64,000 nucleotides of DNA from Botryllus schlosseri. Lineage: Eukaryota. The position numbers and the translations under genes were made by a program. How positions within the stretch are numbered: the first letter of the stretch is position 1; each line of letters starts with the position of its first letter. Positions 9,705-63,657 of this stretch are shown piece by piece. The stretch spans positions 40,736,001 through 40,800,000 of the forward strand of contig CM119371.1 in NCBI GenBank assembly GCA_051294905.1. Direction: 5' to 3'. The notes beneath the pieces were generated by a model. It saw only the letters and a list, made by a program, of their open reading frames with translations. It was not told the DNA's origin and ran no database searches.

Positions 9705-9932
9705 CTAATAATATACCGAACCAAACCATGACTCACAATATAAAACTTCCAACTCAGCATCGATATCATTTGCAATCTTCTGGGCTTTCTTCAAATCGTC
9801 TCCTTTCAACACGTCATATTCACGATTGCATATCAATGTTACTTTCTTCAAAGTAGGGTTGTTGACGAGAGACGAAACGTCATCGACTGAAGCACGACAT
9901 CCAGCGGCAAATATGCATCTGATGCATTCGAT
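9705..9932 (-). CDS. Putative terminal exon of the NLR-like gene (IECIRCIFAAGC...WFGSVYY*)
   Basis: Acceptor ctcccgtcgcag|ATCGAA, phase 0, 75 open codons then stop. LRR-like 'LVNNPTLKKVTLIC'. Confidence 0.6.
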   Translation of the reverse strand: MECIRCIFAAGCRASVDDVSSLVNNPTLKKVTLICNREYDVLKGDDLKKAQKIANDIDAELEVLYCESWFGSVYY

Positions 9933-10038
9933 CTGCGACGGGAGAATATTACTATTAGTATTATATATTATAATGATGCTTCTTGCTATTGCTAGCCTTT
10001 TCACCAGGGGATATGATTTTTTACATGGTACTTTGGAT

Positions 10039-30866: not shown

Positions 30867-30906
30867 TTTCTTATCTATTGATCAAGGCTGAATTAGTGGT
30901 TACAGT

Positions 30907-31698: not shown

Positions 31699-31838
31699 AT
31701 AATGATATAAGTTATCAATCTGCTGTATTAGGGCTGGCTATATGCATCTCAATTTCTCATCTGAGATCTGCATCTTATCACAATTAATATCATTATAGAG
31801 CTATCGTTATAAAGCTATGATTTGATGAAGTGACTCAC

Positions 31839-35826: not shown

Positions 35827-36417
35827 ATCTAACGGTTAGGTTAGTAATCTATCCTTAATTTCAGTATATATAGCCTACTATTATCGGAGTCTGCACTCTG
35901 GTGGCAGATGAGTCGCCAGTCGTCGGCCAGAACCGATCTTTATTAGATATTTTCGGTATAAAGCGCTAAACAATCGCTAAATACCTTTTCAAAAATCGCT
36001 AGATTTATCGCTAGGCGCTAGATCCATATTTTTAGCGCTAAACCTGATGAAAAATCGCAAAAATCGCTAAATTGGCAACACAGTGTGAGATCGGGCGCTC
36101 TAGGCCGAGGTGGATGTTAGAGTAAAGGATCGCTACTGATGCGTGTCGTTAGACATCCTCCTATCTGTTCATGACATCGCATTGTGTCTTATCGCATTGT
36201 ACATTGTGTGTGACTTGTTCAGATAAAAATAATAACCCAACAATGTTATGTTATGTTATGTTCAAGTCCTATGAATATATGACTGTAATTAATGACTGTC
36301 AGTTTCCATTTCCTCAGCTTCCGCATAGGAATTTCAGTGAAATATAGGAACTGGGTTTTCCTGTGGGTTTATTTAGCGTCCACATCTGGGTTTTTCAAAA
36401 ATATCCCAGTGGCATAT

Positions 36418-40735: not shown

Positions 40736-42130
40736 CTTTGTAAAGATCGTTTTGTGATTTGGAGAAGACGACGCCTGCCACGAATCGACGCACAACGGAC
40801 CATCGTTCTCCATGGAGATGTTCTTCATCGAAGCGAGAGAACTCGTTGATCTTCATTTCTGTTATAAAAATCGCTGCCAGATATTCTTGAAGGCTTTGAT
40901 GACAGAAAAATAATGTGAAATTCCCTTCCATCAAATGTCGGCTTAGTAGGTTGTTCCCCGGAACTTTAGTCATCAAATCTTGGACTTCATCTGCCGAAAT
41001 TCCAAATTCCTTCAAGACCGTCTCTTTGAACACGACCCGTCCTTCACTCATGCCTCGAAATGCCAATGCCTTCAGTTTGTTGACGATCGATAAAATTTGT
41101 TCCCGATTTCGAATGTTTTCGACGCTCTGTAGAGATGATATGATCCTGTTGTATAGCTCTGTCACCGTTGTTGGAGGAGGTTTATCTGGATCCCTGCCCA
41201 TCACAACTGCCGTTAGAATCAGGAAAACGGGCACAGAGATCAAATTGAGCAATCTTGGTGACATGGTTTCAATTTTCTGCCAGAGCTTCTCACCATTCTC
41301 TTTGAGTAAAAATGCAAATAGCCTATGCGCGTCTTCATACATAAGGCCATTTAGCGTGATGATGGTTTCGGGTCGCGCCATCGCCGGTAACTCTGAAACC
41401 TTGAACTCACGTGAAGCTATGTAGACATTAACGTGACGCAGGATATTCCGGGATAAAATGTTGTGCATGACTGTCCCGCAGCTTGCTTTTTCGTACTGTT
41501 TTATTTTGCGTGGATTTTTCTCAAAATCCCACCTTGTTTGATCAAGCCCGTCAAATATTAGGAGTGCCTCGGATTGATGTTTATCCAGCCATTTGAATGC
41601 CTGATCCTCTTCAAATTCACTTTCGAAGAGCCCTCCAAATAAAAATTTTGATGGTTTAATATCGTCCTTCACTTCAACGTCTTTCAATTCAATATAATGA
41701 ACCATTCTTTTACCGAAAGAGGGCAGATCTTCAAAATGCTCAATTTTCGGGGATGCGCCGAGAGCTCGTCGAGCTATTCTCCGTGTAAGTGTAGATTTTC
41801 CCGATCCTGCAGATGCCACAATAGCGGTTATACCAACTGTTCCTGAAGAGCCTGATTTTTTCTTTTGCCACATGGATGCCACTACGTCATCGATGCCGAT
41901 ATCTTTCGCTTCAATCGTGTCCTTCCGAAGAAATCCAACTTCCTGTGTCAGCTGATTATGGCCATAGCGACCTTTGTAATAATCATCAACGTCAATTTGA
42001 CGCATTTGTGGGTTAACTTCAAAGTCAGGTTGCTGAAGCTTTTCATGTCGAAAATCATCAAGGATATCAATGGCCGTCACTTTCATGGTGTTTTCGTTGC
42101 AAATTTGTACAAACTTTTCCTCGCTAATAT
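40736..42130 (-). CDS. NACHT NTPase exon of an NLR-like protein
   Basis: 1395-bp phase 1-1 exon (tttttcag| ... AAAG|gttag). Walker A ASAGSGKST, Walker B LLIFDGLDQ, sensor IASR, LISVPVFL, LAFRGM and winged-helix FCHQSLQEYLAA are all standard NACHT landmarks. Confidence 0.93.
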
Positions 42131-42764: not shown

Positions 42765-42905
42765 CTTTGTTTGGTGCTGAATGTTCGGCACCGTTGGCGT
42801 GATGATGGTGTTGAATAATCTGGTTCCCAGCTATGACGTTTACCGAGCTATTTTCGAATGTTTGAGCAATTTGTCCCTCGGCTAATTTCGCAGATTTTGC
42901 AGAAC
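42765..42905 (-). CDS. Exon just upstream of NACHT with a RHIM-like motif (GSAKSAKLAEGQIAQTFENSSVNVIAGNQIIQHHHH...PNK)
   Basis: Acceptor ctcttcacag|, 141-bp phase 1-1, donor AAAG|gtggga. In frame with the NACHT exon and homologous to exon 51729-51875. Confidence 0.7.
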
Positions 42906-45326
42906 CTGTGAAGAGTTCGACGTGTGAAGTCGGGTACAGGCTGTTCGGATGATAAATGCAAGATGCTATCTCTCTATTCGGTCTTTTCGGTGCTTTCTCG
43001 CTACGCCCGTATAGTTTGATGTTCAATTTAGTACAGCATTTCACATACCTCAAGCGAATTTCACGCTATGACTTTCATAACGTAGAACGTAATTGGTCTC
43101 TGTCAGCTTCGTGAGTCCATTAGGAATATCATCTAGTCTAAATAGCACCTCATTCGATGTTTTTAAATTAATATTTTGAAAAAAAACGGCTTTCTTGTGT
43201 GGTGATCAGCCATTTTGGTTGCCCCGAAGATGCAACTTGCAATTTCAAGAGTATATAGCACTGCCTCGAGAGTATAGTACAGCCTCACTTTTGTTTTCAT
43301 TTGCTTTTATTCACTATTTAAATCAGTATTTCTTCTAACTCCACTTGAATTGGTTTTACATTTATTCGGATGGACTACGTTTACTCGTATGTAAATTGTG
43401 GTGTTACTTTTCTCTGTACTTGAGTACAACGGCTGTTTACGTTGTCAACTTAGGAACAAACCGATTGATGACTATACGCCTGAAAAAAACTATTACTTTG
43501 ATCCGTTTCCAATGAAGTTGATGGTCTCTTTAAAATTTCGTCATCGTCTCCTCGAATATTCTTCAATGAATATGAATAATATGACTCAATTTATAGCTGA
43601 AAAAGATTACACGAAAGCCAGATGATTATTTGCACAAGTAACATTGATGTCATATTTTATTTTTGTTATTGGAATTCTGGCTCTGCCCTAAGGCTTACAA
43701 ACCCCAGAACAATGGTTCCAATGTGAATGATATCGCTGCCCTGGATACGATTTTGCGAAAGAGCCAAAAAAGTGTTTAAATTTACCTAGTCTACAGGCAA
43801 AACTGCACGAGCAGGTGGCCACAACATATAACCTACTTTAAAAGAAACAGTAAACAAAAATAACATCACCGATGTCGGCTAGTCTCTAAAGGGGCGATAA
43901 AGATATGCTAGGCTTGATAAGGAGGCGATGATGGAGAATCTTCCTGAACTACCGGTCAATAACCTATATATATGGTTACCATAAACGTCTCCCTTTTTCA
44001 GTTTTTAAAAATGTTCTCCGAGGATGTCCAAATGTCCTCATTTTTGGGAATTTTTCCTCCTTTACAGCTTCAAGAGCTAATGATAGTGGATAGATTCGAA
44101 GGGAAATGAGCATAAATAACGCTAAATAAAAAAATCGTGGTTCGACGAAAATGACGACCTTTTTTTAGTCAACCAACGTAAAGTGCAAGGAAAAACTGTG
44201 TTCCTGGAGTTGAGCCGGGGAGTTTTCCTTTTACTAATTTTTAGTCAGACGGCCAAGAAGTGGGAAAAATTTACCATTTTTCCGCATTGTGCTCCACAAT
44301 TCTAAGTCTAAAAATTAAAAAAAAGTGTCCTCCTTTCCCGATTCCAAAATATGGTAACCCTACACTTTGGAATACTACGTCAAGTATAGTATGTACGGTG
44401 TAAGTGAGACTTAACGAGCGCAAGTTACGAGCACACAGTCAAACGCATGCAGGCTACAAAAACGACAATGAGGCTTAAAGATGCATATCACCAATACAAA
44501 GAAGTGCGATGATTTGGAAGAGATGTTGCGTGACATGATCATTTCCATTGATTTTGTCTGTCCTGGATTTCCTACAAAATGTGAATCGGACGTTGCGATA
44601 ACAGCGTATATTGGGCTGCTTATAAATTAGATCCACACGAAATAGTGCGGTGCAAGGGCATTGTGTAAAGCCAGTGTGGTAAACACTGAATTAAACTGTA
44701 ATTTCGGACTGAATTATCTTCGTTTACCTATTACAGTGGATTATACAATGTTGACGTCCGGTGTGTTATCAAATATTTCGTAAATTCAGAATTTCGTATG
44801 GTATATTATAAAATCTTTTTGCAATACTAATACAAACGAGGATCGTATATTCACTATCATTATGATTTTTCAAAAAGCTTCCTGTCACATTTTGTAATTC
44901 TACTGCAATGGTATGCTTTCACGAACGGAGATTGGCCCAATGAGTAATTGCATACATAATATTTGCAACACTCTCATATGGAATAATTAAAGTCCAACCA
45001 AATAATAGTGAACATGCCATCATTACAGTTTTGCGTCAGTTTGATGCTGATTAGTCGACAGGTTGAATGTTATGATGTCGAAGTACGAACATTTCTTATC
45101 AACTATTTTACATCTTTGTACAAGTTCTGCAGAAGTACCTATTATCGTATTCGATTGCAAAATGAGCAGAGTGCTACGATTGCATATTCACACCGAATAC
45201 ATTGAATTATCAGACGCTTCGCTGTTCAATTGTACAAATATATTTACTAACTGGTAAATATATGATTTCAGAGCTTGTGTAGATATCGTAAATAGATGCA
45301 TATTTGGACCATTAACAGACATCATC

Positions 45327-45712
45327 GTTTGTATTTGTATTTCATCGAACAATTTTTTTGGCCCTTATCGCCGATAAGGTCATTTACGCCCGATCATGTA
45401 TTGTCCATGATTGTCCTTTGCTTTGTCTTTGCTTGTAGTGCGATATTTGCGAACGATTACCAGTCACACTCTTTTCCACTCTCTCACGCCCGAGTCCTCG
45501 TCAGAGTCAGTTGACAGTAACTTTTCGTTAGCTCGACCCTACTTGCTTCATCTGGGCTTCATGCACGACACTGCATATGCACTTTATGCAGTGAGATCAG
45601 AGATGAGGAGTCCAGATAAATGTCCGACCGACACATAGAAGTAGGTCCGAACCGGAATTGGAACCTCTGCCATTGGTGTCGTGACTCTGGTACATAACCA
45701 ACTGTGCCACTT
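45327..45712 (-). mobile_element. tRNA-derived SINE (older copy)
   Basis: The minus-strand head GTGGCACAGTTGGTT...GGTTCCAATTCCGG resembles A and B boxes. The body is homologous to 56480-56600 (GATGAGGAG.CCAGATAAA, GACACATAGAAGT, CCATTGGTGTCGTGAC). Confidence 0.7.
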
Positions 45713-48099
45713 GCTTCCCAGACATCAGACATAATCACAAGTTGTTTATTGGATTACTGACGATGATTACTGGTGCGGTGTGGTTGATAATTATACCAGA
45801 CACACGAACGAGTGACTCTATTCACGCTATAGTTATCATCAAACATTGCATACATTAAGTAAAAGCTAAATCATGTACCATTGTGCGTTGCATCATGCTC
45901 AGACAATATCACGCATTTCTCCGATTAGGCGACCGCGCCATCGGTGTTTTGGCTGGTTCTTGCAAATATTGGAAACTTTCTATTGTAGGTTAAAGTTTCT
46001 GCATGGTTTACCAGTCATATCCACCCTCCACTCGTTTCTACACATCCTGCTGCTTGGTTTTATATCGAAATGCCGAAACAGATAGTTGTGAGGAATTAAT
46101 CGACTCAGCGAATCCATCAGGAGCCTTTCTGATGCAAACTTTATGTGGGGTTTGTAAATATTGGATCATGATTTCCTTCTTATTGCAATCCGGTTTAGTA
46201 TATATTACAGTTTAAATCGTGAATTTAACCACTTAAAATTATCACACCACAATTCACACAATATATTCACGGCCAAACCGTCAAAAAAGTGAATGAATAA
46301 GGTCCCGAGTCTGCCAATGGCCATACTTATAATCTCGCGCTTAAGCGCCACATTTTGAGTTCGACTTCAACCTTACACCGTCCTCAAATACCATAGCCCG
46401 CCAAATATAACTCGAGGGAACACTGAGAGAGCAATAAACATGGTCAAATACCACGTGCTCTACTTGAAAACATTTGCATGCCACTAGATTTGTCCACGTA
46501 GGGTACCAAAGTTTAAGAAACACCGCCTTACATGAAAAACTTCATCAGCATGAATATTGGTTAGTTGAAATACTGATAAGCGAAAAACGAGATTTTCCAC
46601 GAACTTCTTGACTTTTTTAATTCGACTTCACGCGTAATCTCTACGGTTATCCTATACATGCGTTGATGAGACTCATTGCTGCTAATCCATGTATCACCCC
46701 TGTATTCTTCTTATAATTTGCTCAGCATTTATTGTTACTTATTGGCATTTGGACGGAGATAATAAAGTTCGCGGATGCGGGAGAATGCTAATCCTATGAA
46801 TAAATACTTCTAATTGCGACGAGTAAAGTTGGAAAAGGTTACGCACGATGGTTGGCCGAGGTGTCCCGAGTTTTCAATCAAGAGGCGTTATCTGTTGCAT
46901 CATAATGCGAAAACGCGTTATAGGCTGGAAAGTGTCAATTTGTTGAATGAAACAGCAGCCTGCTGAAAACTATTCTGCCACTGCAATAGGTAGAATTATC
47001 ATCACTGCGAAATGAAAGTCGTGTCCAATTCGTACGGTACAGCTAAGAAACGGATTATAGAATGGTGATATCGCTCTGCAATAGCGGGTACATAATTCGT
47101 TGATTGTTTAGTGAAGATATCACCCTCTAGGACAGACCTGGGCAAAGTGCGGCCCGCGGGCCAAATGCGGCCTGCGAAGCTATTCTGTGCGGCCCGCAAA
47201 AGATTGCTTGGAATTCAAAACATAGAACTTGCTTTTCGAATGACTGGCAGGCTGCATCAAATGAAATTCGTTTACTTTGAAGCCTGTCCAAGTGTCCATT
47301 AAAATGCCACGATTACGCCGCCTATACGCACCTCGTGTGAGTTATCCAGATTCAAAACAAAGGCAATGTGGCAGAGTGTGGGTAGCAATTTAAGACACAA
47401 TAAATCACTCTTTCTCTCTCTATATATTTTTAAACCTTCTTTGTTGCCATTGTCACATTATACGCATTCAAATTGTTACGGCATACGTTACCAAATCCCT
47501 AATCTCGCGAATACTGTTATTTGAGTCATCATGTCTATCACCCATGAAGGTTGCGCGGGCATGTGAAAATAAAAAAGCCGAAAAATGAAATTCAAAGAAG
47601 GTTTAGAGAAGTGGTTCCCGACATTTCCGACTCCTCGTTCCCTTATCAAGCTCAACACAAATTTTCGCCCACTTATTTACGGATCCGATATACGGGGTAT
47701 ATCAACGGGTTATTTATTCACCACAATTTGATCGCTGGGCATTTGGCAAAAAAAAGAAAGGTAATTTTTCCGAGTAGGTATTCCGACAACCGGTTTCTGC
47801 GACCGAGTCTACTTTCCATTGAGTTGACCTTATTTTTCGTCAACTTTCCAATCATATGGAGAATTAGCCGTCTTCACTTGCATTTTTGGCCGTGTTCATT
47901 AAATATATCTCACAAGACGTTCTAACATTTTCGTCCTCCGTCGCCCACTTTGGTATTTTCGACCCTTTTATTTTTCAAAATCACCCACGTTAGGAACCAC
48001 TGGTTTAGAGCACCAAATATTTGTATACTGAAGTCAGGGACGAACCAGTCCTTTTTTGCCGAGCATGTCGCCGAAATTAAGGATTTTAATTGAAGTCGG

Positions 48100-50730
48100 A
48101 AGATAATTACTGAACCCACAAGAATAACTGATCAATCCAAAACTCTACTAGATCACTTCTACTGCAACACTCATCAATATCACCTGTCCCCTTTTGTGCT
48201 CCAACACAGTATGACTGATCACTATCCCATCATCTGCCACATGAAATTGGCCCTGCCACATAGTGTTAAAGAATTTGAATCTCGAACGCCCTTAAACCCA
48301 CGCGGTATAGAGGAGTATATTGAAATTGTCAGCAATACCTTCAACAACTACAAAATTCCTCCACTCACAACTGACAACTACAACTGCCATTTTGAAAAAT
48401 TTATTGAGGAACTGCGGGCAGCCCTCGACACATCTTTCCCAATTAGGAAAGTCAACCGCAATGCAAGGCGCTTGAAATCGAAACCCTGGATTGGTCATGA
48501 CATACTAGTTGCAATCAAAACAAGGGATTGGATGCATAAGCACTACTATCTGCAAGGCACCATCGAAGGCAAAAAAGTGTACAAAAAATATGCAAACCAA
48601 GTGACGCATATGAAAGGAAATGCCAAAAAAACATACTTCCAAAAAAGATTCGAAGAGTGCTCCAAAGATCCCAAGAACACATGGAAAACCATTGGAGAAA
48701 TTATCAACCTAACTAAAGGTAATGCTCCCAAGAGTACTGATGACATCGAGCTACTCGAGAATGGCAGCACCATCAAAGACCAGCTTGCAGTAGCAGAAAA
48801 GTTCAATCAGTATTTTTGCAACATTGGTCCGGATCTTGCAGCTTCAATACCAAACTCCTCCGATGACTTTCTCTCGTACTTGAGTCCTGGCCCTCAGAAA
48901 TCCATTTTTCTTGAGCCGACAAGTGAAGGAGAAGTTGCGATCGTATTATCTGAAATGGAAAGTAACAAAGCAGTAGGACCCGATCTCATCCCAACTCACT
49001 TTCTGAAGCTAGTCTTTAATATTATTGGTGATGTTATATGCATTTTCTTTAATGAGTCGATACGTCTAGGCATTTTCCCAGATGCACTGAAAACTGCCAG
49101 AGTAATGCCATTGTTTAAGAAAGGCTGTAAAAAGCTAATTTCTAACTACCGACCAATATCTGTTTTGCCAAATCTTGCCACGGTTTTTGAGAAACTGATT
49201 GACTGCCGACTTAAGAACTTTTTTGAATTGAATGCAGTACTGTCTCCGACCCAGCATGGATTCAGATCCAACCACAACACCAACCATGCAATACTATCAA
49301 TTGTAACGGACTATTACAAAACCATCAAGCAAAAAGAAAGTGGCAGCAGCATTTTTATCGATCTCCGCAAAGCTTTCGACACAGTTAACCACAGAATCTT
49401 AAGATACAAGCTAGAACACTATGGAATCAGGGGTATTGCAGCAACTCTACTTGAAAGCTACCTGGCAAACCGCAAACAATTTGTTAAACTTGGGACATTA
49501 AGAACGACTACCAGAGATATAACTTGTGGAGTGCCACAAGGCTCAGTCATTGGACCGACTTTTTTCTTCATTTATATTAACGACATTGTTAATGCATCTT
49601 TATTCCGCACAACGCTATTTGCTGATGATACTCACCTCTTCATAACCTCCAACACTGTCGATGATTTGCATGCATCTGTGAATAGGGAACTCCCAAAAGT
49701 GTCGAGATGGCTGCAAGCAAACAAACTAAGTTTGAATGCAGATAAGACCGAGATGCTCGTTTTAAATAATGCCAGTCATAATTTCACTGTGAACATCAAT
49801 CATAAACAAATCTCACTATGTGACTCAGCAAAATATCTCGTCGTCACCATTGATTCCAAATTGTCTTGGAAGCAGCATATTGAATGCACAATATCAAAAC
49901 TAGCTCGGTGTGTGGGAATAATGACCCGTCTCCAATCTTTGGTTTCCAGATCAGTACTACGAACCATCTACTTCTCTCTTTTCCACTCGCATCTGCAATA
50001 TGGAATCGTAGTATGGGGAAATGCATGTACAACATTTTTGTGCAGAATTCGAACCCTGCAAAACCGTGCGATACGGCTGATCTCATCTGTACCTTTACGT
50101 ACCAATTTATCGCCTTACTACCGTAAGCATCGAATTTTGCGAGTTGATGAACTGTATCGCTTCGAAGTATCAAAAGTTGTTCACAAATATTTTTCCAATA
50201 GTCTCCCTCCTGTGTTTGATGACTTTTTCATACCTGCTAAACATGTCCATTCCCATTACACGAGATCTTCGTCTAAAGGAAACGTCTACTTACCCCAACC
50301 CAATAGCAACCTAACTAAGAGATCTATCGACTACTCGGGACCTATCATCTGGAATGCATTACCATCACATATCCGTGAATTGCCTTATAATAGATTCAAA
50401 AAAGCCCTACTTGATCACCTCTTGTCGTTACACTAACACTGTTGCCCTACCTCGCCCAGACATTGCTTCATTGATCATTTGCTACCATTGTTTAATTTTT
50501 TTTATATTTTCCTTTCCTAACTAAACATTTTTTCACAGCCAGACTGTTCTGAGTCAAGTGTACCTGTTTGATGCTGGTGTGATCAGACTAGATGACCTTC
50601 ACGGTCTTATCGATCATTCCTATCTAATACCGAATACTGTGCACGCATATTTTCTGTACCACCATCACTGCCGTTTGTTATGTATTTTGGTTCGATGAAA
50701 ATAAAGACTCTCTCTCTCTCTCTCTCTCTC
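48100..50730 (+). mobile_element. 5'-truncated CR1/L2-group LINE
   Basis: Frame opens near 48100 (IITEPTRITDQSKTLLDHF...TDHYPI, end of EN). 3' hairpin TGATC-AGACTAGATGACCTTCACGGTCTTATC-GATCA (50580-50616), AATAAA and a (CT)n tail to 50730. Confidence 0.93.
48196..50436 (+). CDS. LINE ORF2 remnant: end of endonuclease + intact reverse transcriptase
   Basis: KPWI, NYRPIS, QHGFR, IDLRKAFDTV, GVPQGSVIGP, FADDT; 746 aa uninterrupted. Confidence 0.9.
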   Translation: MLQHSMTDHYPIICHMKLALPHSVKEFESRTPLNPRGIEEYIEIVSNTFNNYKIPPLTTDNYNCHFEKFIEELRAALDTSFPIRKVNRNARRLKSKPWIGHDILVAIKTRDWMHKHYYLQGTIEGKKVYKKYANQVTHMKGNAKKTYFQKRFEECSKDPKNTWKTIGEIINLTKGNAPKSTDDIELLENGSTIKDQLAVAEKFNQYFCNIGPDLAASIPNSSDDFLSYLSPGPQKSIFLEPTSEGEVAIVLSEMESNKAVGPDLIPTHFLKLVFNIIGDVICIFFNESIRLGIFPDALKTARVMPLFKKGCKKLISNYRPISVLPNLATVFEKLIDCRLKNFFELNAVLSPTQHGFRSNHNTNHAILSIVTDYYKTIKQKESGSSIFIDLRKAFDTVNHRILRYKLEHYGIRGIAATLLESYLANRKQFVKLGTLRTTTRDITCGVPQGSVIGPTFFFIYINDIVNASLFRTTLFADDTHLFITSNTVDDLHASVNRELPKVSRWLQANKLSLNADKTEMLVLNNASHNFTVNINHKQISLCDSAKYLVVTIDSKLSWKQHIECTISKLARCVGIMTRLQSLVSRSVLRTIYFSLFHSHLQYGIVVWGNACTTFLCRIRTLQNRAIRLISSVPLRTNLSPYYRKHRILRVDELYRFEVSKVVHKYFSNSLPPVFDDFFIPAKHVHSHYTRSSSKGNVYLPQPNSNLTKRSIDYSGPIIWNALPSHIRELPYNRFKKALLDHLLSLH

Positions 50731-50864
50731 TTATAGCGAAAAGACGAAACACTTTTCAGAAAAACTGCAAGCTTCGCTCAACATCAAGACTGTTTAAGCT
50801 GTACACTGATCGGAAGGCAGTGACCAGGAAAATAAGATTTGTGCTATCGATATACATTTCAGTG

Positions 50865-51148
50865 CAGTGGTTCTCGAACTGGCGGCGTGAAAGCATCTGA
50901 TTTGGGGCGTGAAACCGACGTTTACTGAAAGATTTGTTCGTGCTTCGCGCCATTTAATTCCAGCTTCTGGTTGTTATCCTGTGCATTATCCGACTTTGAT
51001 ATTTCATAATTCTCTCATCAACAGCGAAAACCTTCCATGCTAGCGTTCTGGTTGCGCCTTTTAATATTTTGTGATATCATTATAAGTGGGCGCGCAATTT
51101 TTCACTATCATAAAAGCAGGCGTGCTTAAAGAAGTTTGAGAACCACTG
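50865..51148. mobile_element. hAT-type MITE nested in 47133-51412
   Basis: CAGTGGTTCTC(G)AACT / AGTTTGAGAACCACTG TIRs with TSD TTTCAGTG/TTTTAGTG. Confidence 0.85.
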
Positions 51149-51728
51149 TTTTAGTGTCTTAATAGAATAACGTAGATGGATAGGGGTTTACAGAGATTTA
51201 AAATTGTATCAGGTTTAACATTGTTTCGAACCATGACGGCAAATACACATTACCTAACATCAACACAACCACCGAGCAGCATTTAATATCAATGTAATTT
51301 AGAAATAAAATCAAAATACGCTGGGGAATATACCTAGAATTTTTCTGTTGGCCCGCCAACGTATTTTCTACTTCTCATTTGGCCCGCGGAGGAAAATAAC
51401 TGCCCACCCCTGCTCTAGGAGACAATCGGCACGGTCATTATCGGGAATAATTGTGCGTATAGGAATGGTTCGCAGTGTACGTCGTTTTTACAGTTGGTTA
51501 TCTATAGTTTGTTCCGTCGAAACGCAGAGCTTACTGGAGTTTCCAATCATTGTATTGATATCATTGGTTCCGGCTTGTTAAATCATGAGATTAACACTGA
51601 CTTTTCTTCGCTGCGACTGGTTTCCTTAATCCTGGGTTGATATATTCTGACGACCGCGATAACTGACTTCATTGATCCAACATAATTATCTCTGATCTTA
51701 GAGTTGAATAAACGGTCATTACACAAAC

Positions 51729-51875
51729 CTTCGTGTACGTCACTGGCTTCTCCCTCCGTGTTGATTATATTGCGAACACCTTTGATTGGGAGGATCTGAT
51801 CTCCAGCCATCACGTTGACAGTGCTATTTATGAAACTTTGTTCCACATTGTCACCTTCAGCCAACGTTGCGGCTC
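51729..51875 (-). CDS. Exon with a RHIM-like motif (GAATLAEGDNVEQSFINSTVNVMAGDQILPIKG...DVHE)
   Basis: Acceptor tttatactag|, 147-bp phase 1-1, donor GAAG|gtttgt. Clear paralogy with exon 42765-42905. Confidence 0.65.
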
Positions 51876-52337
51876 CTAGTATAAACATGATTGTTGTTAT
51901 GCCCGCAAGGATAAGGAAGATGGCATAATAACAAAATACGGTATGTTGAAAACCTTTTCCATCTCTTATTGGCCAATATTTAGTTATGGCTTGTTTGCAG
52001 TCGGATCAAGATTCGATGATTACACATTGCTAATATTAATATTGATGTTGAGTATGCATTCCAATATGACGTGCATTACTAACCGCATGTCTGGGCAGAT
52101 ATTGGTGCAGACATTGCATCGGACACAGCAGAGCTTTGATCTTGATCCTTTGCCGACATGGTATTATTCACTTGATACTAAATTACAGGCGTGTTATACA
52201 ATACTAAAGATAAACGGATAGGAAATACAGAATATCATTAATTTTATTTGTGTAACAGCTCGATACTAAGAATTCCGGTGCATATAAAAATATTTCAGAA
52301 TAGTCATTAGAATTCGAAGTTGTACACATCCCCGTAC

Positions 52338-53625: not shown

Positions 53626-54229
53626 ACTGACATTCTTGAAGTACGCTGCTCACTGACAAGACCGGTACAAATATTTGATTAACAACACGAATGGAGTATC
53701 GAGATTGACAGTGTTGAGTCTTCGGTCATATGCCTCACCAATAGGTATACGCAATATACGACATATGCGCGGAAAAAGCGTCAATCTACCTTACGTAACA
53801 ATCTTAATATTTTTCAAAGCACGGGAAATAAAGACATTCTGTGAGCTATATAATAGGTTCACCACACTTTCACCAAATCATAACAGTTAGTTTACCGAGA
53901 TAGAAACCAGCTGATTTTGAATTACTCACTGCACATGTTGTGTTGACTAAAAAATGCCATCACTTTTGATAGACCCCCGAATCACCTGCTTTTTGACGTT
54001 TCTCTGGTGCTGTTGACTTGAAAAAAAAAGATAAAAACGTCGTCACTGATTCGAATCCCAAATGACTTTCACGAACGTCCACATTGCCTAACGTCCACAA
54101 GGATAGGCTTAATGATTCAAGTGAAGATCTAATAATTTAAAAGCTTATCGACGAAAGTGTTTAAGTGGATTATATTTATTTGCCAAAATGTCCTTTCAAT
54201 TGGAATAATACAAAATGTGAGTAGGTATA

Positions 54230-56240
54230 TAGATCGGTCTGGGGGTGCCTGGGGCTCTTATGGGTGCGGTGGCACGGTGCCGAGAAACTCGTGGTGGCAC
54301 GGTGACCCTTATCTCTTATGGGTGCGGTGGCACGGTGCCATTGTGTCTTATGGCTGTGGTGGCATGGTTACCTTTTCGGGTATAGGCTGCGGCGGCACGG
54401 TGCCGTGAAAACTCGTGGTGGCATGGTTACCTTTTCGGGTATAGGCTGTGGCGGCACGGTGCCGTGAAAACTCGTGGCGGAATGGTTACCTTTTCGGGTA
54501 TAGGCGCGGTGACATGGTGACCTTTCAGGTAGAGATGATTTGACTAACGTTGTGGGTATAGGCGGCGGCGGCACGGTGTTGAATATGTATCAAGTAAATA
54601 GTCACGTGATTGACTCTTAGTTAATCTGTATATCCCAAATTATTATATATGACCGATTCGAGTTAATCCTAACGTTTACGGCGAGTGCGACTTTAATATA
54701 TCGTTATTCTTATGGATGCGGCGATGATTCGTACTTTCGTTTATAGACTGCGGGCGGCATGTCGTACTTTCACCAAAAAAGGGTGTGAAATAGTTTGCTA
54801 AATCTAGGAATCGACCGCATGGTAATGTTTTGGTAATTAGTTTACCACAAAACCGGCGTAGACGGCGATTCGAATACCAACAATAACCGCGTTCACAGAC
54901 TAACACTCCAAAAAGGTGTGAAATATTGGTAAAATCCCGCGATCGCTCACAAGATAATACCTAAGACATAACCATCGCTCGCGACTCGCTGTTACATACA
55001 TGCCGATCGTTGACAATGTAATATTTTGGTAATTAGTTTACCACAGAGCCCGCGTAGACGGCAATACCAACAATAGCCGCGTTCACAAACTAACACTTCA
55101 AAAAGGTGTGAAATAGGTTGCAAATCCCACGATCACTCACGTGATAACACCTAAGACATAGCCATCCCTCACAACTTGTTGTTACATACATTCCAATCGC
55201 CACAATGTAATATTTTGATAATCGGTATGTCACAGGAACTGGATTTCACTGGTAAAATTTAATAAGTAACGAATAACAGAACCGTCGCAGACGATGATTC
55301 GAATACCGACAAATTCTCACTTATTTCTGATCCCACCCTAATCCTTTGCGAAGTTGACGCTTATTCGAAAAGGTGTGAAATAATTGTAAAACCCTACGTC
55401 GCTGACAGGATAATGCATCAGACATAGCGATCTAGTTATAGCACGGGTCGGAATCCATTCGGGTTCTATAGGTAAATTGAGATAATCCGAAACCGAATAT
55501 TTTGACTTTGGCGTAGTGTGAATTGAAATAGGATTGACTAACAAGACTACCAAATTTCAACCCGGTCATATTTAGAAATTATACGCATATTGATTTGAAA
55601 CAAGTAATGAAACCTTACAACTCTATTCACGATCTGGCTTTCTGTTTGTCAAAGAGACATTTTAACATCTTACCATACTCAAAAGAATTATTCATAATAT
55701 CAACCGGTGTTAAAAATATAGTTTTCACTGACTTGATTATACCACTACAACTCGCAAACTTGAATTAATTCATCCTGGTTGTATTCATATGACCGATAAT
55801 TTTTATTCAACTGTAAAGGTCGTTACTACACTGCAAGACAAAGTATTTACTAATCGGTACATATACGACTTGACATAACCTATTACATTTTGAGTATACG
55901 AGATTTGAATGTCTGAACAATAACTGAGAATTAAATGATCACGAGTGAATCCGTATATTACAGCGTAAAAGATGTTGGAATGTCAGCAACTCTGTACGGT
56001 CATAGTTACTACCACTAATTTACCCGGCCAACTCGTCATGATCATTCCTGAAATCTACACAAACATGACCACTGACTAGAGTTAACCACAAAATAGCATC
56101 GAGTTTTAAATCCAGTTGTAGCTTACGTATTATTTGAATGCGGGGTATGTTTTGTTATAATTGGGTGTACGGATAAAGTATTAGGTCTCGACATTTTAAC
56201 ATTTTGCCATACTCAGTCAATCAGGAAAACATTGGCAAGT
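54230..56240. repeat. Left TIR (2011 bp)
   Basis: Begins TAGATCGGTCTGGGGGTGCC and ends GAAAACATTGGCAAGT. Contains GC-rich GGCACGGTG/GGCATGGT repeats and longer AAGGTGTGAAATA-anchored repeats. Confidence 0.95.
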
Positions 56241-56604
56241 TTGTTTGTTTGTTTATTTAACACATACAACAGTGGTGTTCATCGCCTATTAAGGTCATGT
56301 ACACCACGACAATGATATTAGTAATGTTCAGGTTCTTTGCTTTTCGTATTCTTTCCGGACGACTTCCACACTCGCGCGCTTCCAACTTCAGTCTCTCTCT
56401 CTTTCATGCATCCGGACTTTTCTTTACTGCCGACTTCGTACTGGCGCGGCTCACCATCATACTGGGCTTTTTGAGACACTGCTAATGCAGTGAGGTTAGC
56501 GATGAGGAGCCCAGATAAACCTCCGACACATAGAAGTTGGTTCGAACCGGGATTCGAACCACAGCCATTGGTGTCGTGACGCTGGCGCTTAACCAACTTC
56601 TATG
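56241..56604 (-). mobile_element. tRNA-derived SINE at the inner edge of the left TIR
   Basis: B box GGTTCGAATCC (56550-56560, minus strand), A-box-like TGGTTAAGCG, 3' hairpin GTGGTGT...ACACCAC and an AATAAA(CAAA)n tail at 56241-56258. Confidence 0.8.
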
Positions 56605-57339
56605 TATGACATAGTTATCGGGTGTGATCACATTCGATCTACATCAAAACTACCGGCTATGATAATGTCTGTGGATCGAAGGCTTACTCCGCGATGTTTC
56701 TATACCAACACATTGCATGCAATGTCACACACCTCCATTTACGTGTATACTGTTGTGGGCAAACAAGCGCGACGTATGTCTGGATGGTATTTTTTCGTGG
56801 AAACACAGGGTGTAACATGTTTACTTTGAATATTGTTCATTGGTTTATCGATTCAGAGTTGATATCCGGATCCGGTTACGTACTTTATCAGGGTTTCCGA
56901 TTTCAAACTGAATGTCGAGACATACACTGACCAATAAAGACACAATATAGTAAACATGCAGTGGGGAAAACTCGACCTGGAGTTGTTATCACGATGGGTA
57001 ACATAAATCCAACCGTTTTCCGAACACCGTTATCCACATACCAACCATCGTCGAGGAGGTGTTTTATTCAGACATTTTGACTCTGGAAAATCCAAAGCAT
57101 GAACCCGGACATCACAGAACTATCGAAGCCTATTGTCCAATTTTCCGAAACATACATTTCTGTGTACAAGAGTATATTGTATGTGGTTAACCGATGATAT
57201 TGATGTGATACGACCGATGGATGTATAGCCTACTCTGTAACCGGTAGTCCGTGTATATTTCCGTCACTGTTCGTTGTAATCTATTTCAAACTATCGTCAA
57301 TACAACAAATACCAAATTGTCAGGTGTGTTTGTCAGATT

Positions 57340-57990
57340 TCAAAATGAAAATGGTTTTGTTACTCTAGGAAAAGCTAGATGACCAAGAGAAAATTTATTG
57401 TTACACTAGGTAAACGCCGGATCTCCAAAGGAAAATGATATTTTTACTAAGGTAAACGACGACCCGCCAAGTGAAAATGGTTTGTTGCTCAGGGAAAAAA
57501 CATATTTCCAAGTGAAAAAGGTTTGTTACCCAGAGAAAAAATATATTTCCATGCGAAAAAAGGTTTGTTACCCAGAGAAAAAATATATTTCCAAGTGAAA
57601 AAGGTTTGTTACCAAGAGAAAAAATATATTTCCAAGTGAAAAAGGTTTGTTACCAAGAGAAAAAATATATTTCCAAGTGAAAAAGGTTTGTTACCAAGAG
57701 AAAAAATATATTTCCAAGTGAAAAAGGTTTGTTATCCAGGACAAAAATAGATTTCCAAGTGAAAAAGGTTTGTTACCAAGAGAAAAATATATTTCCAAGT
57801 GAAAAAGGTTTGTTATCCAGGACAAAAATAGATTTCCAAGTGAAAAGGGGTTTGTTATCCAGGGCAAAAATATATTTCCAAGTGAAAAGGGGATTGTTAC
57901 ACTGGGTAAACGATAAATCTCCAAAGGACAATGGTATTTTAGTTAGGTGACGGTGGACCTCTAGGTGAAAATGATAATTTTACTTGGGTA
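57340..57990. repeat. Minisatellite of about 41 bp, roughly 15 copies, homogeneous in the centre and degenerate at both edges
   Basis: Unit AAGGTTTGTTACCAAGAGAAAAAATATATTTCCAAGTGAAA starts at 57601, 57642 and 57683. Confidence 0.92.
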
Positions 57991-60809
57991 GGTATCTTGT
58001 GTTCAACGCTGGTAGTGTGATTGGTCTTGTTAAACGTAGTTACCGAGTTGTACAATTATGAAGGGGCGGAAAATGAAATTGCTATTATGATCGTCAGAAG
58101 ATTGTTGTATGTAGATTTGACAGTAACCCTATCATTCGCATATGACAAACACAATCATGGTCATTAACTAACTTGCTCGGTCTAGATCAATGCAAAAGAG
58201 ATGATTCGTTTTTTGAAACCGTAGCGAAGACCACATGTAAATCTATGCGATAGACTTCTATCTCCTTACAGTCAGTCGTGTCGTGTCCATTTTAATACGG
58301 GCCCACATGTATGACATGCACACACTAACACCGTAAACAGATGTCGATGATTTTGACTATTAAAAATATTTCTTGACTACACCGGAATGTCTATGTTGTA
58401 GAAAGTAAATACTATAATGGTGTTGTGTGTTTAATGAAAGCGATTGGTTACAAGTATGTTTTGGGAAATTAAATTTATTTTTCTGTATGTGACAGTTTGC
58501 GAGGAAATGAAAATAGATTCGTGGTTTTAATTTGATTGTGACTGTGTTGTTTTAATGTACGTTTCAACAGGTAGACTTGACACTGAACAACAATTCGACC
58601 CACAAAACATATTCGTTGTATGATTTGTTACTGGTGTGTAAAGGGTTAGGAATATTTTGAATGATAATATCTACTAGCTGTTTTGTTGTGAGAGCGATCA
58701 TGTGATGACTCAGCACTTTTCGTTAGCAAAGTAGATTGATCTATGTGAAAGATGTAAGGACCGTGACTAGAAACATATGTACTTTGTTGTTGGGGTACTG
58801 CTATGGCATTGACATAACCCTCTGGGAGTGAGTATGCTTTTCTTTCACGAAAGTTTACGTGGCTCCGTTGTAATGAATTTGTGTTAACTAAACTCGGATG
58901 GATACCGCAATTGTGCTGGACTTACACATGGTATTCGCATACTGTGCACATATACAAACTTTTGTGTAAACAGCTCTGTGATGTTTCTGTTAGTACTAGT
59001 TCTAGTTCTGTGTTGAACTATTTGATTATTAAGATACATGAACACCCATTCAGACAATAAAGGTCTTGTGATATCGAAACAGTTTGTAGAGTCTAACCAG
59101 CCATTCTTTAGTTTCTTAATGTGAGAATATCGAGTAAAGTTAATTACTTAGTGCGATGTTAATATCCTTCGTACTTTTGTAAGAGTTGTGGGGTAACATA
59201 CAAAGTAACTAATTGACACAAACAAAATGGTGATATTGTGAAGATGATGCCACAACAACACAACAAGTAATATTTTGTATCGGGTGTTTGTACTTTAGGA
59301 ATAGCGGAGTGTGCGATATTTTGGATATGTGTGCACGGTTGTAAACTACGGTTGTTCTTGGGTCTTGCGTCGAGTAAATCATAACTATATCTAGAATTCA
59401 AACACATCCAAGTAAGTTCTTTAGCGACTATGATTACATCTACTTTGACGAGAGGAAATGGAAAAATTCAAATGGATACTACTGACGAACAAAAAGTGCA
59501 AAATGGTTTTATCAGATTTAGGTGTAGGATATCTTTTCGATTTCTTTACCAGAGTGTGTTTTACAAATATTTCTAGTATACCAAAGTATAGGGTACATTT
59601 ATCAAACGTCGTACAAATTGTTTATGCGACGGCAACGACTTTGGGTTACTTGGTTTCGATCCTTTTCTAAAAGATTGTCGGACAATGGTGTTATAATCTT
59701 CTGTAATGATCGAGGTACGTGATCAAGTTTCCAATCAATTAATAATCGGACATATGACTTTGGTTTAACGAATCATAATATTTCTAAAATGCTTGCTGGT
59801 ATCATAAGACACAAATCGAAATTCATATCAATCAAGACCTTTGCATGCTCTGAGTTTTGTGATGGTGTTTATTTCACCTGATAGAAATGAACTTGTATCA
59901 ATAGTAGTACGAAACGCATTTATCATTTTCGGTGTTGGTTGTGTTCCTGATTTCTTTGTTGGTATGCACTCTACAAATAATTTCTGCATACTGAGGTATG
60001 ATGCGTTTGACGAATATCATAGAAATCGTTTTTTGTGTTGGTAATGACTTTGAGTAGTTTGGTTTTATCATTACAATTACTTTAGAAGATTCAAATGATA
60101 ATGCATGATCGCTACTAGCAACAATACAAACACATTTTGTAGATTTCAGTGTAGCACATATTTTGAGCCAGTAAAGATAGTCCAAATTGCTCTTGTGCTG
60201 ATCAAAGTCTTAGAGAGTTTAACCTCGTAATGTTTTACATTTAGCACGTACAACAGCGAGTCACTGAAAGGATTAAGTATTGTTCACCCACTTCGACTGG
60301 TACTCGATGCCAAAAGTGATATTTTCTAATAACCTTTACCACAACATCGGGTCTAATTATCGCGAATAATTTAATAATCAAGTCGTGGTCGGACATTACA
60401 AAATCTCATATATCAAATCAATGTGTCAATCCTTATGTTTACAGTATGATACCTTTCAATGTAACACCGGCGTTTGATTGTAAGAAATGAATTCTCAACT
60501 ACGTTGGTCAGACATTCAAATCCGGTATACTCAAATGTAATATGTTAAGCTCAAGTCCCCTGTACCAAAGAGTAATTACTTTTGTCTTACAAAATATACC
60601 GAGTAATAATTAGTTTGTCTTGCAGAATATACCGCGTAGTAATTCCTCTATCTTACAGAATAGTAACGACTTTTCAAGTTGAATAAAAAAGATGCGTAGG
60701 GATATGAATACAACCGAGCTTGTTATGGATTTTAGGTTTTAGTGATTGTATGGACTCGTGTATGCTTGGCTGACTGCTGGAGTTGGTCGGGTAAGTTACA
60801 AACGGATTT

Positions 60810-62820
60810 ACTTGCCAATGTTTTTCTGATTGACTGAGTATGGCAAAATGTTAAAATGTCGAGACCTAATACTTTATCCGTACACCCAATTATAACAAAA
60901 CATACCCCGCATTCAAATAATACGTAAGCTACAACTGGATTTAAAACTCGATGCTATTTTGTGGTTAACTCTAGTCAGTGGTCATGTTTGTGTAGATTTC
61001 AGGAATGATCATGACGAGTTGGCCGGGTAAATTAGTGGTAGTAACTATGACCGTACAGAGTTGCTGACATTCCAACATCTTTTACGCTGTAATATACGGA
61101 TTCACTCGTGATCATTTAATTCTCAGTTATTGTTCAGACATTCAAATCTCGTTTACTCAAAATGTAATAGGTTATGTCAAGTCGTATATGTACCGATTAG
61201 TAAATACTTTGTCTTGCAGTGTAGTAACGACCTTTACAGTTGAATAAAAATTATCGGTCATATGAATACAACCAGGATGAATTAATTCAAGTTTGCGAGT
61301 TGTAGTGGTATAATCAAGTCAGTGAAAACTATATTTTTAACACCGGTTGATATTATGAATAATTCTTTTGAGTATGGTAAGATGTTAAAATGTCTCTTTG
61401 ACAAACAGAAAGCCAGATCGTGAATAGAGTTGTAAGGTTTCATTACTTGTTTCAAATCAATATGCGTATAATTTCTAAATATGACCGGGTTGAAATTTGG
61501 TAGTCTTGTTAGTCAATCCTATTTCAATTCACACTACGCCAAAGTCAAAATAATCGGTTTCGGATTATCTCAATTTACCTATAGAACCCGAATGGATTTC
61601 GACCCGTGCTATAACTAGATCGCTATGTCTGATGCATTATCCTGTCAGCGACGTAGGGTTTTACAATTATTTCACACCTTTTCGAATAAGCGTCAACTTC
61701 GCAAAGGATTAGGGTGGGATCAGAAATAAGTGAGAATTTGTCGGTATTCGAATCATCGTCTGCAACGGTTCTGTTATTCGTTACTTATTAAATTTTACCA
61801 GTGAAATCCAGTTCCTGTGACATACCGATTATCAAAATATTACATTGTGGCGATTGGAATGTATGTAACAACAAGTTGTGAGGGATGGCTATGTCTTAGG
61901 TGTTATCTCGTGAGTGATCGTGGAATTTGCAACCTATTTCACACCTTTTTGAAGTGTTAGTTTGTGAACGCGGTTATTGTTGGTATTGCCGTCTACGCGG
62001 GCTCTGTGGTAAACTAATTACCAAAATATTACATTGTCAACGATCGGCATGTATGTAACAGCGAGTCGCGAGCGATGGTTATGTCTTAGGTATTATCTTG
62101 TGAGCGATCGCGGGATTTTACCAATATTTCACACCTTTTTGGAGTGTTAGTCTGTGAACGCGGTTATTGTTGGTATTCGAATCGCCGTCTACGCCGGTTT
62201 TGTGGTAAACTAATTACCAAAACATTACCATGCGGTCGATTCCTAGATTTAGCAAACTATTTCACACCCTTTTTTGGTGAAAGTACGACATGCCGCCCGC
62301 AGTCTATAAACGAAAGTACGAATCATCGCCGCATCCATAAGAATAACGATATATTAAAGTCGCACTCGCCGTAAACGTTAGGATTAACTCGAATCGGTCA
62401 TATATAATAATTTGGGATATACAGATTAACTAAGAGTCAATCACGTGACTATTTACTTGATACATATTCAACACCGTGCCGCCGCCGCCTATACCCACAA
62501 CGTTAGTCAAATCATCTCTACCTGAAAGGTCACCATGTCACCGCGCCTATACCCGAAAAGGTAACCATGCCGCCACGAGTTTTCACGGCACCGTGCCGCC
62601 ACAGCCTATACCCGAAAAGGTAACCATGCCACCACGAGTTTTCACGGCACCGTGCCGCCGCAGCCTATACCCGAAAAGGTAACCATGCCACCACAGCCAT
62701 AAGACACAATGGCACCGTGCCACCGCACCCATAAGAGATAAGGGTCACCGTGCCACCACGAGTTTCTCGGCACCGTGCCACCGCACCCATAAGAGCCCCA
62801 GGCACCCCCAGACCGATTTA
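60810..62820. repeat. Right TIR (2011 bp)
   Basis: Begins ACTTGCCAATGTTTT and ends GGCACCCCCAGACCGATTTA. Confidence 0.95.
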
Positions 62821-63657
62821 TATAACTACTAATGTGTTCCGATATCAATATTTAAAATGCATTTCTTCACCTGAATACTGCGTTAAGACGAACGGTATTG
62901 GTAATAGTCGAAGGAAGTCTGATAACTGATAATGACGAAACGTGAGTTATCTACGAAGGGGCTGTGTTCAACAATGCCCAAATTGCCCATGTTTTACACA
63001 CATTAGTGTTATAATAGATTTTTCGGTGATTCATTTTATAGTGTGACAAATTTCCAAAAAATTGGATTTAATTGAACTCATTTTGTTGCAAGCCCATTTT
63101 ATTCTATGTTTCATACAGTCGTGAAGCAATGACATAGTGGCGACCCTGGTCTCCAGTATGGTGTTATGATAGCGAGAGACGCTATCGATTTCTAGTTGTG
63201 CATATTCTCCTTATTTAATAGGTCGAAGCGGGACCTACGATATCGTAGGCCCCGGTCGAAGAATTAATTATTGGTATTGACGTGAATTTGGATGAGTTGA
63301 AACTTTACATTGTGAAATTTGTAAATGCAAATCGAAGTTTTTTTCTTCTAATTTTGTGATGGCACGAGCTCAATACCGCTAACCTATACAGCGCCCGTTC
63401 AAGCGGATGCAACGTAGTTGTCTAATGAATGGGACATCGACCTTCATTCCGTCATACTGAGTAGAGTGCAAACATATGCTGTGTTTCCAGAGTGCACAGT
63501 TACGTTTGGTGTTTGCAAGATCGCGAGTGAAACGTGTTCAACCGCAAAGCAATTAATTTCGGATTTGTTAGTCGTGTAAGCATTTGATTAATGCCATTTC
63601 GTGACAGGTGCCAACTTTACGGACGAATAGGTTTAAATTATTTTTGATTCTAACAGT

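What the first reader, a model, noticed from the sequence alone, without database searches (positions are those of the whole stretch)
42765..51875. Two homologous symmetric exons encode a RHIM-like, possibly amyloid-forming motif upstream of the NACHT
Seen: exons 51729-51875 and 42765-42905 lie 9 kb apart, are both phase 1-1, and share LAEG-x(3-4)-Q-[ST]-F-x-NS-[ST]-VNV-[IM]-AG-[ND]-QI (LAEGDNVEQSFINSTVNVMAGDQIL vs LAEGQIAQTFENSSVNVIAGNQII) while their flanks differ. Known: RHIM and insect cryptic-RHIM motifs are short beta-prone N/Q/G/V-rich segments (NS..V.xG..) that signal by amyloid templating, and fungal and bacterial NLRs activate adjacent effector genes through a shared amyloid motif. 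Inference: either one NLR with two skippable amyloid modules, or a two-gene system (small death-domain + motif adaptor next to a motif-NACHT-LRR receptor) resembling fungal NLR-amyloid pairs in an animal. The match to RHIM is loose: there is no exact (I/V)Q(I/V)G core.
Basis: partly seen in the sequence, partly recalled or inferred. Interest (0 to 1): 0.8.

Follow-up and report, generated by a model that had tools for sequence, protein, structure and literature searches.

The report
Motif shared by NLRs and kinases
The two exons are duplicate copies of a short strand-prone peptide that starts one sea-squirt immune receptor gene; the same peptide starts about a hundred sister receptors and also several IRE1-like kinases, which points to an untested receptor-to-kinase signalling link, possibly of the amyloid type.

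Summary
Both exons are real, homologous (15 of 24 core residues; 0 of 200 shuffles match as well) and phase 1-1. They belong to one NLR gene (short start exon, motif, linker, motif, NACHT, LRR). No death-domain adaptor was found. An RNA-type contig from an allele or close paralogue joins both exons. The motif is not a RHIM (no tetrad, no Pfam hit). It is a genome-wide module: 120 of 164 copies lie upstream of a NACHT exon, in three subfamilies only about 30% identical. This scan had already noted the motif on NLRs at other loci. New here: 6 of the 164 copies lie 1-5 kb upstream of IRE1-like kinase exons, all six with in-frame splice sites; one is followed by a second kinase and a KEN ribonuclease. 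Between receptor and kinase copies synonymous sites are saturated while the protein is kept. Best reading: a homotypic beta-assembly motif that lets oligomerised NLRs cluster and activate these kinases, as RHIM does for RIPK3. Binding, fibrils, direction of signal and kinase-side splicing are unshown. Two copies per gene is common (15 of 105), and skipping is unproven.

The parts
52084..52159 (-). Predicted first coding exon (ATG, 25 codons + 1 nt, phase-1 donor); no domain. Whether more coding exons lie upstream is not excluded.
   Evidence: Read from sequence; splices in frame to 51875; not shown by RNA
51729..51875 (-). Motif exon 1 (long type, 48 whole codons), phase 1-1; first 27 residues are the conserved core
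   Evidence: its 3' end is joined in an X1 contig
47117..51414 (+). 4.3-kb insertion in the intron, holding a LINE reverse-transcriptase ORF (48094-50436); absent from the closest paralogue and from some contigs
   Evidence: ORF; joint 47116-51415; paralogue alignment gap. LINE label is from my reading of the translation, not from a family search
43497..43571 (-). Linker exon, phase 1-1. In this copy the acceptor reads CAT, not CAG; an in-frame AG at 43551 or skipping both keep the frame
   Evidence: X1 contig covers 43571-43498 and joins it to 42906
42765..42905 (-). Motif exon 2 (46 whole codons), phase 1-1, one-codon deletion in the core
   Evidence: 5' end joined in an X1 contig
40737..42130 (-). 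NACHT + winged-helix exon, phase-1 acceptor, open frame
   Evidence: PF05729 E 5.6e-15, NOD2_WH E 2e-4; acceptor; 91 full-length relatives scored in the genome
31827..32105 (-). HD2/first-LRR exon of the same NLR (limits approximate)
   Evidence: tblastn with a Styela NLR, E 5e-8; weak LRR_6/LRR_1

Best explanation
The window holds one NLR gene of an ascidian whose N-terminus is two copies of a 27-residue module (consensus ATLAEGENVNQxFxNSxVNVVAGDQI), each on its own phase 1-1 exon; the second copy arose by exon duplication. The module is the family's signalling end and is also the N-terminal module of a small set of IRE1-derived Ser/Thr kinases. Mechanism: ligand-driven NACHT oligomerisation (inferred from NLR biology) crowds the motifs, which stack as beta-arches (inferred); the stack recruits and templates the matching motif of the kinases (inferred); clustering drives trans-autophosphorylation and, where a KEN domain is attached, RNA cleavage (by analogy with IRE1, which oligomerisation alone activates, PMC12858354 abstract). 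Two motif copies would raise nucleation efficiency. Shown: exons, copy number, placement before NACHT and kinase exons, in-frame splice sites, purifying selection. Not shown: binding, fibrils, direction, kinase-side transcripts.
For: 120 of 164 motif places have a same-strand NACHT within 40 kb downstream, against 4, 1 and 0 in the three control orientations. The motif precedes NACHTs only 28-33% identical to each other yet keeps 63% core identity between two subfamilies. 6 of 164 places have an IRE1-like kinase within 5.1 kb downstream, against 0, 0, 0 in controls; no listed NACHT lies within 3.8 Mb downstream of them. In 6 of 6 the motif exon is phase 1-1 and the kinase exon has an in-frame phase-1 acceptor. 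The kinase's best solved relatives are IRE1 (E 1e-24); both full kinase exons read keep the Lys, HRD and D(F/M)G motifs. One gene continues into a second kinase and two KEN exons over the Pfam cut-off. Receptor-kinase pairs: pS 0.85 (saturated), pN 0.27; kinase-kinase dN/dS 0.30; receptor-receptor 0.25. The core is 30% Val+Asn, nearly proline-free, with conserved and variable positions alternating at 7-12 and invariant-like NS and G turns. Known amyloid signalling motifs are defined by being shared between an NLR N-terminus and an effector (PMC5485727, passages).
Against: No experiment or RNA join on the kinase side. No similarity to RHIM or any Pfam amyloid motif or solved structure. In fungi and bacteria the effector gene is adjacent and carries the motif at its C-terminus; here neither holds. 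One of the six kinases has an internal stop. The link from kinase 1 to kinase 2-KEN (4.2 kb) has no identified bridging exon, and the KEN copy has Thr where this genome's IRE1-type KEN has Tyr before the DLLR motif (catalytic role recalled). 70 of 175 listed NACHT loci have no motif hit within 40 kb, and 68 of 75 listed kinases have none. 37 of 164 motif places have no assigned gene; two that I read further (8.4 and 4.9 kb) showed neither kinase nor NACHT. Raw-read depth over the window's exons is near zero.
Confidence: 0.55

Rival explanations
1. The motif is a linear docking peptide that binds a third, folded protein (a common adaptor, chaperone or inhibitor) by beta-augmentation; NLRs and kinases share a partner but do not co-assemble, and no amyloid forms.
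For: Strong conservation across unrelated host proteins fits any shared ligand; the N-terminal xATLAEG part is the most invariant stretch and is not a typical amyloid segment; no match to known amyloid motifs.
Against: About 27 conserved residues is long for a docking motif; Asn/Gln/Gly/Val make-up and alternating conservation; repeated tandem duplication (15 of 105 NACHT genes); Styela NLRs carry N-terminal Asn/Gln/Val/Ile repeats, one array of which AlphaFold2 folds as stacked strands at pLDDT 50-68.
Confidence: 0.18
2. Same homotypic motif, opposite direction: the kinases (some tandem) are sensors or baits and the NLRs are executors or guards, as with wheat tandem kinases and their helper NLRs.
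For: The kinase family is large and varied (75 matches, 266 candidates), and some motif genes hold two kinases in a row. Wheat precedent seen only as search listing and abstract starts (10.1101/2024.08.30.610287).
Against: The NLRs have no other N-terminal output domain, and many receptors to few kinases (105 against 6-7) is the usual sensor-to-effector ratio (inference).
Confidence: 0.1
3. The exon is a leader module that kinases picked up by exon shuffling (a single-exon kinase landing behind an NLR promoter and first exons). It is kept for localisation, turnover or autoinhibition, not for signalling between the two families.
For: All junctions are phase 1, so shuffling is free; the kinase domains read are single exons; linker exons come and go between near paralogues; most kinases of the family lack the motif.
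Against: Synonymous sites between kinase and receptor copies are saturated while 54% of core residues are identical, and kinase copies are themselves under purifying selection; motif-bearing kinases are only 34-81% identical to one another's reference, so the link is old.
Confidence: 0.13
4. One reading: two genes, a small death-domain + motif adaptor beside a motif-NACHT-LRR receptor.
For: 9 kb and a LINE separate the exons; the joining contig is not from this exact copy.
Against: No death-domain exon found; continuous frame; exon 1, linker and exon 2 are joined in one contig; exon 1 is the family-typical copy, and the same pair precedes one NACHT in two close paralogues.
Confidence: 0.04

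Closest known systems
RHIM signalling (RIPK1/RIPK3, ZBP1, TRIF; amphioxus RHIM-NACHT protein BF82280; PMC4262963 parts 1-2 of 4 read, PMC12119088 passages)
   Same: Short Asn/Gln/Val/Gly segment shared by sensors and kinases; occurs singly or as two copies joined by an unfolded linker; stands where a death-fold domain normally stands, also before a NACHT.
   Different: No V/I-Q-V/I-G tetrad and no PF12721 hit; motif is N-terminal to the kinase; the kinase is IRE1-derived, not a RIP kinase; lineage reported to lack RHIMs (PMC4262963) and RIPK1 (PMC12119088); about 100 receptors share it.
Fungal and bacterial NLR amyloid signalling (NWD2/HET-S, PP, sigma, BASS1-10; PMC5485727 and bioRxiv 2020.01.06.895854, passages)
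   Same: NLR with a short N-terminal motif instead of a folded effector domain; same motif on a non-NLR enzyme; repeat unit of similar length (21 residues for HET-s, about 27 here).
   Different: Partners are on other chromosomes, not adjacent; motif is N-terminal on the partner; partner is a kinase (one beside a KEN RNase), not HeLo/Bell; sensor domain is LRR; amyloid state untested.
IRE1 / RNase L kinase-KEN enzymes
   Same: Kinase domain most like IRE1; KEN exons downstream in one gene; IRE1 is activated by clustering (PMC12858354 abstract).
   Different: No luminal sensor, membrane helix or ankyrin repeats were seen between motif and kinase; KEN found near only 1 of 6 motif-kinase genes; an extra kinase lies in between; one RNase-site residue differs.
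Styela clava NLRs with domain-less N-termini (e.g. XP_077969750, XP_077972295, XP_039258506)
   Same: Nearest named relatives (33-36% in NACHT); N-termini made of strand-prone repeats; one group has two tandem units that align with the motif.
   Different: Homology of the units is weak (hhalign E 0.02; 0 of 100 column shuffles for one group, 4 of 100 for the other); no Styela motif-kinase was found (a weak search).

Membership tests
RHIM (PF12721) | Core tetrad V/I-Q-V/I-G (PMC12119088) | tested here: not met
   0 of 31 members of A1 and 0 of 6 kinase-side cores, also for xQ[VILFS]G
RHIM (PF12721) | Match to the family profile | tested here: not met
   0 of 31 members; genome-wide 3 weak matches under the cut-off, none at a motif place
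RHIM (PF12721) | Shared by sensor and kinase | tested here: met
   NACHT genes and 6 kinase genes; by gene structure only
NLR-associated amyloid signalling motif | Short motif at the NLR N-terminus in place of a folded effector domain | tested here: met
NLR-associated amyloid signalling motif | Same motif on an effector protein | tested here: met
   11-15 of 24 core residues identical between the window's two copies and six kinase copies; effector role itself inferred
NLR-associated amyloid signalling motif | Effector gene adjacent, motif at its C-terminus | tested here: not met
   Kinase genes lie on C3 and C5, megabases from listed NACHTs downstream; motif precedes the kinase
NLR-associated amyloid signalling motif | Forms cross-beta fibrils and templates the partner | not testable with these tools
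   Only composition and periodicity could be scored
Animal NLR (NACHT-LRR) | NACHT domain | tested here: met
   PF05729 56 bits, cut-off 26.7
Animal NLR (NACHT-LRR) | C-terminal leucine-rich repeats | tested here: inconclusive
   One HD2/LRR exon, Pfam LRR under cut-off; further LRR exons not modelled
Animal NLR (NACHT-LRR) | N-terminal death-fold domain (usual, not required) | tested here: not met
   Profile of 8 Styela death-like units over six frames of the window: best E 1.7
IRE1/RNase L kinase-KEN (partner genes) | IRE1-type kinase domain with catalytic motifs | tested here: met
   13 of the 16 solved sequences at E<=1e-20 head the list as IRE1, 15 of 16 in all; motifs in 2 of 2 exons read in full; Gly-rich loop absent in both
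IRE1/RNase L kinase-KEN (partner genes) | KEN ribonuclease in the same protein | tested here: inconclusive
   KEN exons 8-9 kb downstream of 1 of 6 motif-kinases, behind a second kinase; bridging exon not found

The most novel reading that the evidence does not exclude
Ascidians, reported to lack RHIM and RIPK1, run an independent amyloid-type pathway: about a hundred NLRs signal through a lineage-specific beta-motif to IRE1-derived kinases, at least one of which ends in a KEN ribonuclease, so that pathogen or non-self sensing switches on phosphorylation and RNA cleavage without death-fold domains or caspases.
Probability: 0.3. Interest if true: 0.92.

Novelty: new variant of a known kind. Interest (0 to 1): 0.78.

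Why it matters
The output of the large domain-less NLR repertoires of invertebrate chordates is unknown. A motif shared with a handful of kinases names candidate effectors and turns the question into a direct experiment (two 30-residue peptides and one kinase construct). If the assembly is amyloid, it is a second animal amyloid-signalling motif family besides RHIM, in the vertebrates' sister group, coupled to an IRE1/RNase L-type enzyme rather than a RIP kinase or pore former. The two-exon arrangement in this window is by itself a common duplication.

Tried and rejected
Complex prediction of the window's motif with a kinase-side motif: no verdict (score 0.01, alignment not used, controls not folded); no evidence either way. 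AlphaFold2 of the motif exon alone: pLDDT 54, no secondary structure; uninformative. Fold search of the Styela repeat-protein model: nothing at E<=0.001. ESM Atlas: motif gives only hits under 0.8; kinase gives generic kinases. Motif profile against the protein database: 3 hits, all exon fragments of the same family; kinase search for longer relatives: none; both searches are weak. PDB sequence search with the motif: 2 chance aldolase hits. Sequencing runs: no RNA holder on record; raw-read runs X21, X22, X24 gave near-zero depth on the exons. My first linker-exon model (acceptor at 43595) was wrong: it hits a stop. The 22 extra letters of the X1 contig are in neither the window nor 76 loci. 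Candidate ORFs downstream of two motif exons gave no Pfam family. Rejected: RHIM membership, death-domain adaptor, transposon origin or recent spread of the exon (saturated synonymous sites; between three loci from different clusters only the 69-81 nt core aligns around the exon).
Full report
Setting. The window is G000:C1:40736001-40800000 of a 495.5-Mb animal assembly. The nearest named relatives of its NACHT protein are from Styela clava, so I take it for an ascidian (inference).

Observation. Both exons are as described: 147 and 141 nt, minus strand, AG/GT, phase 1-1. They match each other at 57% over 28 residues, beyond 200 of 200 shuffles.

One gene. An ATG exon at 52159-52084 ends in phase 1. 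Splicing it to exon 1, exon 2 and the NACHT exon gives 586 codons without a stop; leaving out exon 1, or both motif exons, or adding the linker from its downstream acceptor also stays open. A contig of run X1 (RNA is the tool's guess) shows two joints of equal depth, 14.4: exon 1 through 22 other letters to 43571, and 43498 to 42906. These sit at the predicted splice boundaries, so exon 1, a linker and exon 2 are on one spliced molecule. The 22 letters are not in the window, and the window's linker acceptor reads CAT, so the contig comes from an allele or close paralogue. The join from exon 2 to NACHT and any skipping join were not among the 15 of 79 joints shown; raw-read depth on the exons was near zero. 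No death-domain exon was found with 152 related proteins or a profile of 8 Styela death-like units.

A genome-wide module. Exon 1 as query gave 150 matches of 157 candidates at E<=10. In the 30 best loci an AG stands at the same phase-1 position in 29. Four queries give 164 places; four NACHT searches give 175 loci (21 partial rows dropped as fragments of listed genes; all lists are lower bounds because only part of the candidates is scored). 120 of 164 places have a same-strand NACHT within 40 kb downstream, against 4, 1 and 0 for the other orientations; 105 NACHT loci have at least one copy and 15 have two. The motif precedes three NACHT subfamilies that are 28-33% identical; for the third this rests on positions only. 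Exon 2 has close copies only in two neighbouring paralogues (98% and 72%), so this duplication is local, and others arose separately (inference).

The partner. Reading DNA behind unassigned copies, one locus (L065, C3:20.18 Mb) showed a 293-codon kinase frame 2.7 kb downstream: Pkinase E 2e-37, best solved relatives IRE1. The motif exon is phase 1-1 and the kinase exon begins at an in-frame phase-1 AG. The kinase family has 75 matches (134 of 266 candidates scored). Six motif places have such a kinase within 5.1 kb downstream, none in control orientations, a seventh at 28.8 kb (not verified), and no listed NACHT follows within 3.8 Mb. All six have the same splice geometry; one kinase has an internal stop. 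At C3:57.9 kb the motif exon is followed by a single-exon kinase, a multi-exon second kinase and two KEN exons (35 and 37.5 bits, cut-off 23.3). I could not find the exon that bridges the two kinases, so motif-kinase and kinase-KEN may be two genes. Two other unassigned copies showed neither kinase nor NACHT in the 8.4 and 4.9 kb read; three showed NACHT. 37 places remain unassigned.

Selection. Over 24 core codons: 23 long-type exons (18 with a listed NACHT) pS 0.50, pN 0.18, dN/dS 0.25; these against 6 kinase copies pS 0.85, pN 0.27, 54% identity; kinase copies among themselves dN/dS 0.30. Pairs are not independent, the copies were picked by similarity, and exon 2 was left out because of its one-codon gap; still, saturation of silent sites with a kept protein argues against a recent passenger. 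Conserved positions alternate with variable ones in the first strand, Asn-Ser and Gly sit where turns would be, and proline is 0.4%: compatible with a beta-arch, not proof of one.

Mechanism. I favour homotypic beta-assembly from oligomerised NLR to motif-kinase, with activation by clustering as for IRE1 (PMC12858354, abstract and outline seen). That the motif mediates NLR-kinase contact I put at about 0.65; that it does so as an amyloid with the NLR upstream at 0.55. Rivals are a docking peptide for a third protein, the reverse direction, and a shuffled leader.

Comparison with the known. It works like RHIM and fungal or bacterial amyloid motifs by architecture, but is not a RHIM. Kajava et al. 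(PMC4262963, parts 1-2 of 4 read; figures not visible) report RHIM-NACHT proteins in amphioxus and say tunicates appear to lack RHIMs; PMC12119088 (passages) found no RIPK1 in tunicates. In fungi and bacteria the effector is adjacent and carries the motif C-terminally (PMC5485727 and bioRxiv 2020.01.06.895854, passages). PMC12261475 (passages) does not mention tunicates; PMC9505182 (passages) gave nothing on this. Seven searches aimed at a prior description listed none; the library lacks most subscription papers, and I did not see the motif logos in figures and supplements of the fungal and bacterial papers, which could hold a similar motif. Styela NLRs have strand-prone N-terminal repeats; one group aligns weakly with this motif (6.9 bits against a shuffled maximum of 6.1 for one profile, not above shuffles for the other; hhalign E 0.02), and AlphaFold2 folds another group's array as stacked strands at modest confidence.

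Earlier notes of this scan describe the motif before NLRs at many loci and IRE1-type kinases fused to other immune modules; none of the notes shown names a motif-bearing kinase.

Verdict. Real, one gene, not a RHIM; the duplication is ordinary, the shared NLR-kinase module is the finding. New variant of a known kind; interest 0.78.

Noticed in passing
window 47117-51414: A 4.3-kb insertion with a LINE ORF between the two motif exons; contigs without it exist and the closest paralogue lacks it, so it is recent or polymorphic.
   Followed up: partly
window 54173-62877: An 8.7-kb element with 2080-nt terminal inverted repeats (98% complementary) and internal tandem repeats, just upstream of the gene; no long ORF inside.
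   Followed up: no
window 27705-31737 (-) and 2437-4022 (-): A LINE with two ORFs (276 and 1058 aa, the second open and starting with a Cys-rich finger) and a broken LINE, in introns or downstream of the NLR (labels from reading the translations).
   Followed up: no
window 48950-49635: A 686-nt CT..AC skip supported by 170 reads in X24, 24 in X22 and a contig: an antisense spliced transcript of the LINE family, probably from other copies.
   Followed up: no
window 9705-10037 (-): A 110-codon frame ending in a stop that may be the last exon of the NLR; no Pfam match.
   Followed up: partly
window 36084-36231: A short repeat with very high read depth (about 1500-fold in X24 and X22), likely a SINE or part of abundant transcripts.
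   Followed up: no
P0001 (Styela clava NACHT-LRR-ZU5 protein), last 35 residues: An Asn/Gly/Gln/Ile-rich C-terminal tail where a death domain might be expected; resembles amyloid signalling motifs by composition only.
   Followed up: no
P0009, P0061, P0016 (Styela clava NLR N-termini): 33-residue Asn/Gln/Val/Ile repeats, about nine in P0061, modelled as stacked strands at pLDDT 50-68.
   Followed up: partly
G000 C3:13.05-13.79 Mb, C2:8.95 Mb, C16:2.82 Mb, C7:13.6 Mb, C14:12.4 Mb: 28 KEN matches over the Pfam cut-off genome-wide, with a cluster of about 600-codon frames on C3 and three kinase-KEN frames of 1140-1198 codons without introns.
   Followed up: no
G000 C8:3.86-4.01 Mb, C3:34.4-35.0 Mb, C5:24.96-24.99 Mb, C3:25.4 Mb: Clusters of motif exons with no listed NACHT or kinase downstream; they may hide further partner types.
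   Followed up: no
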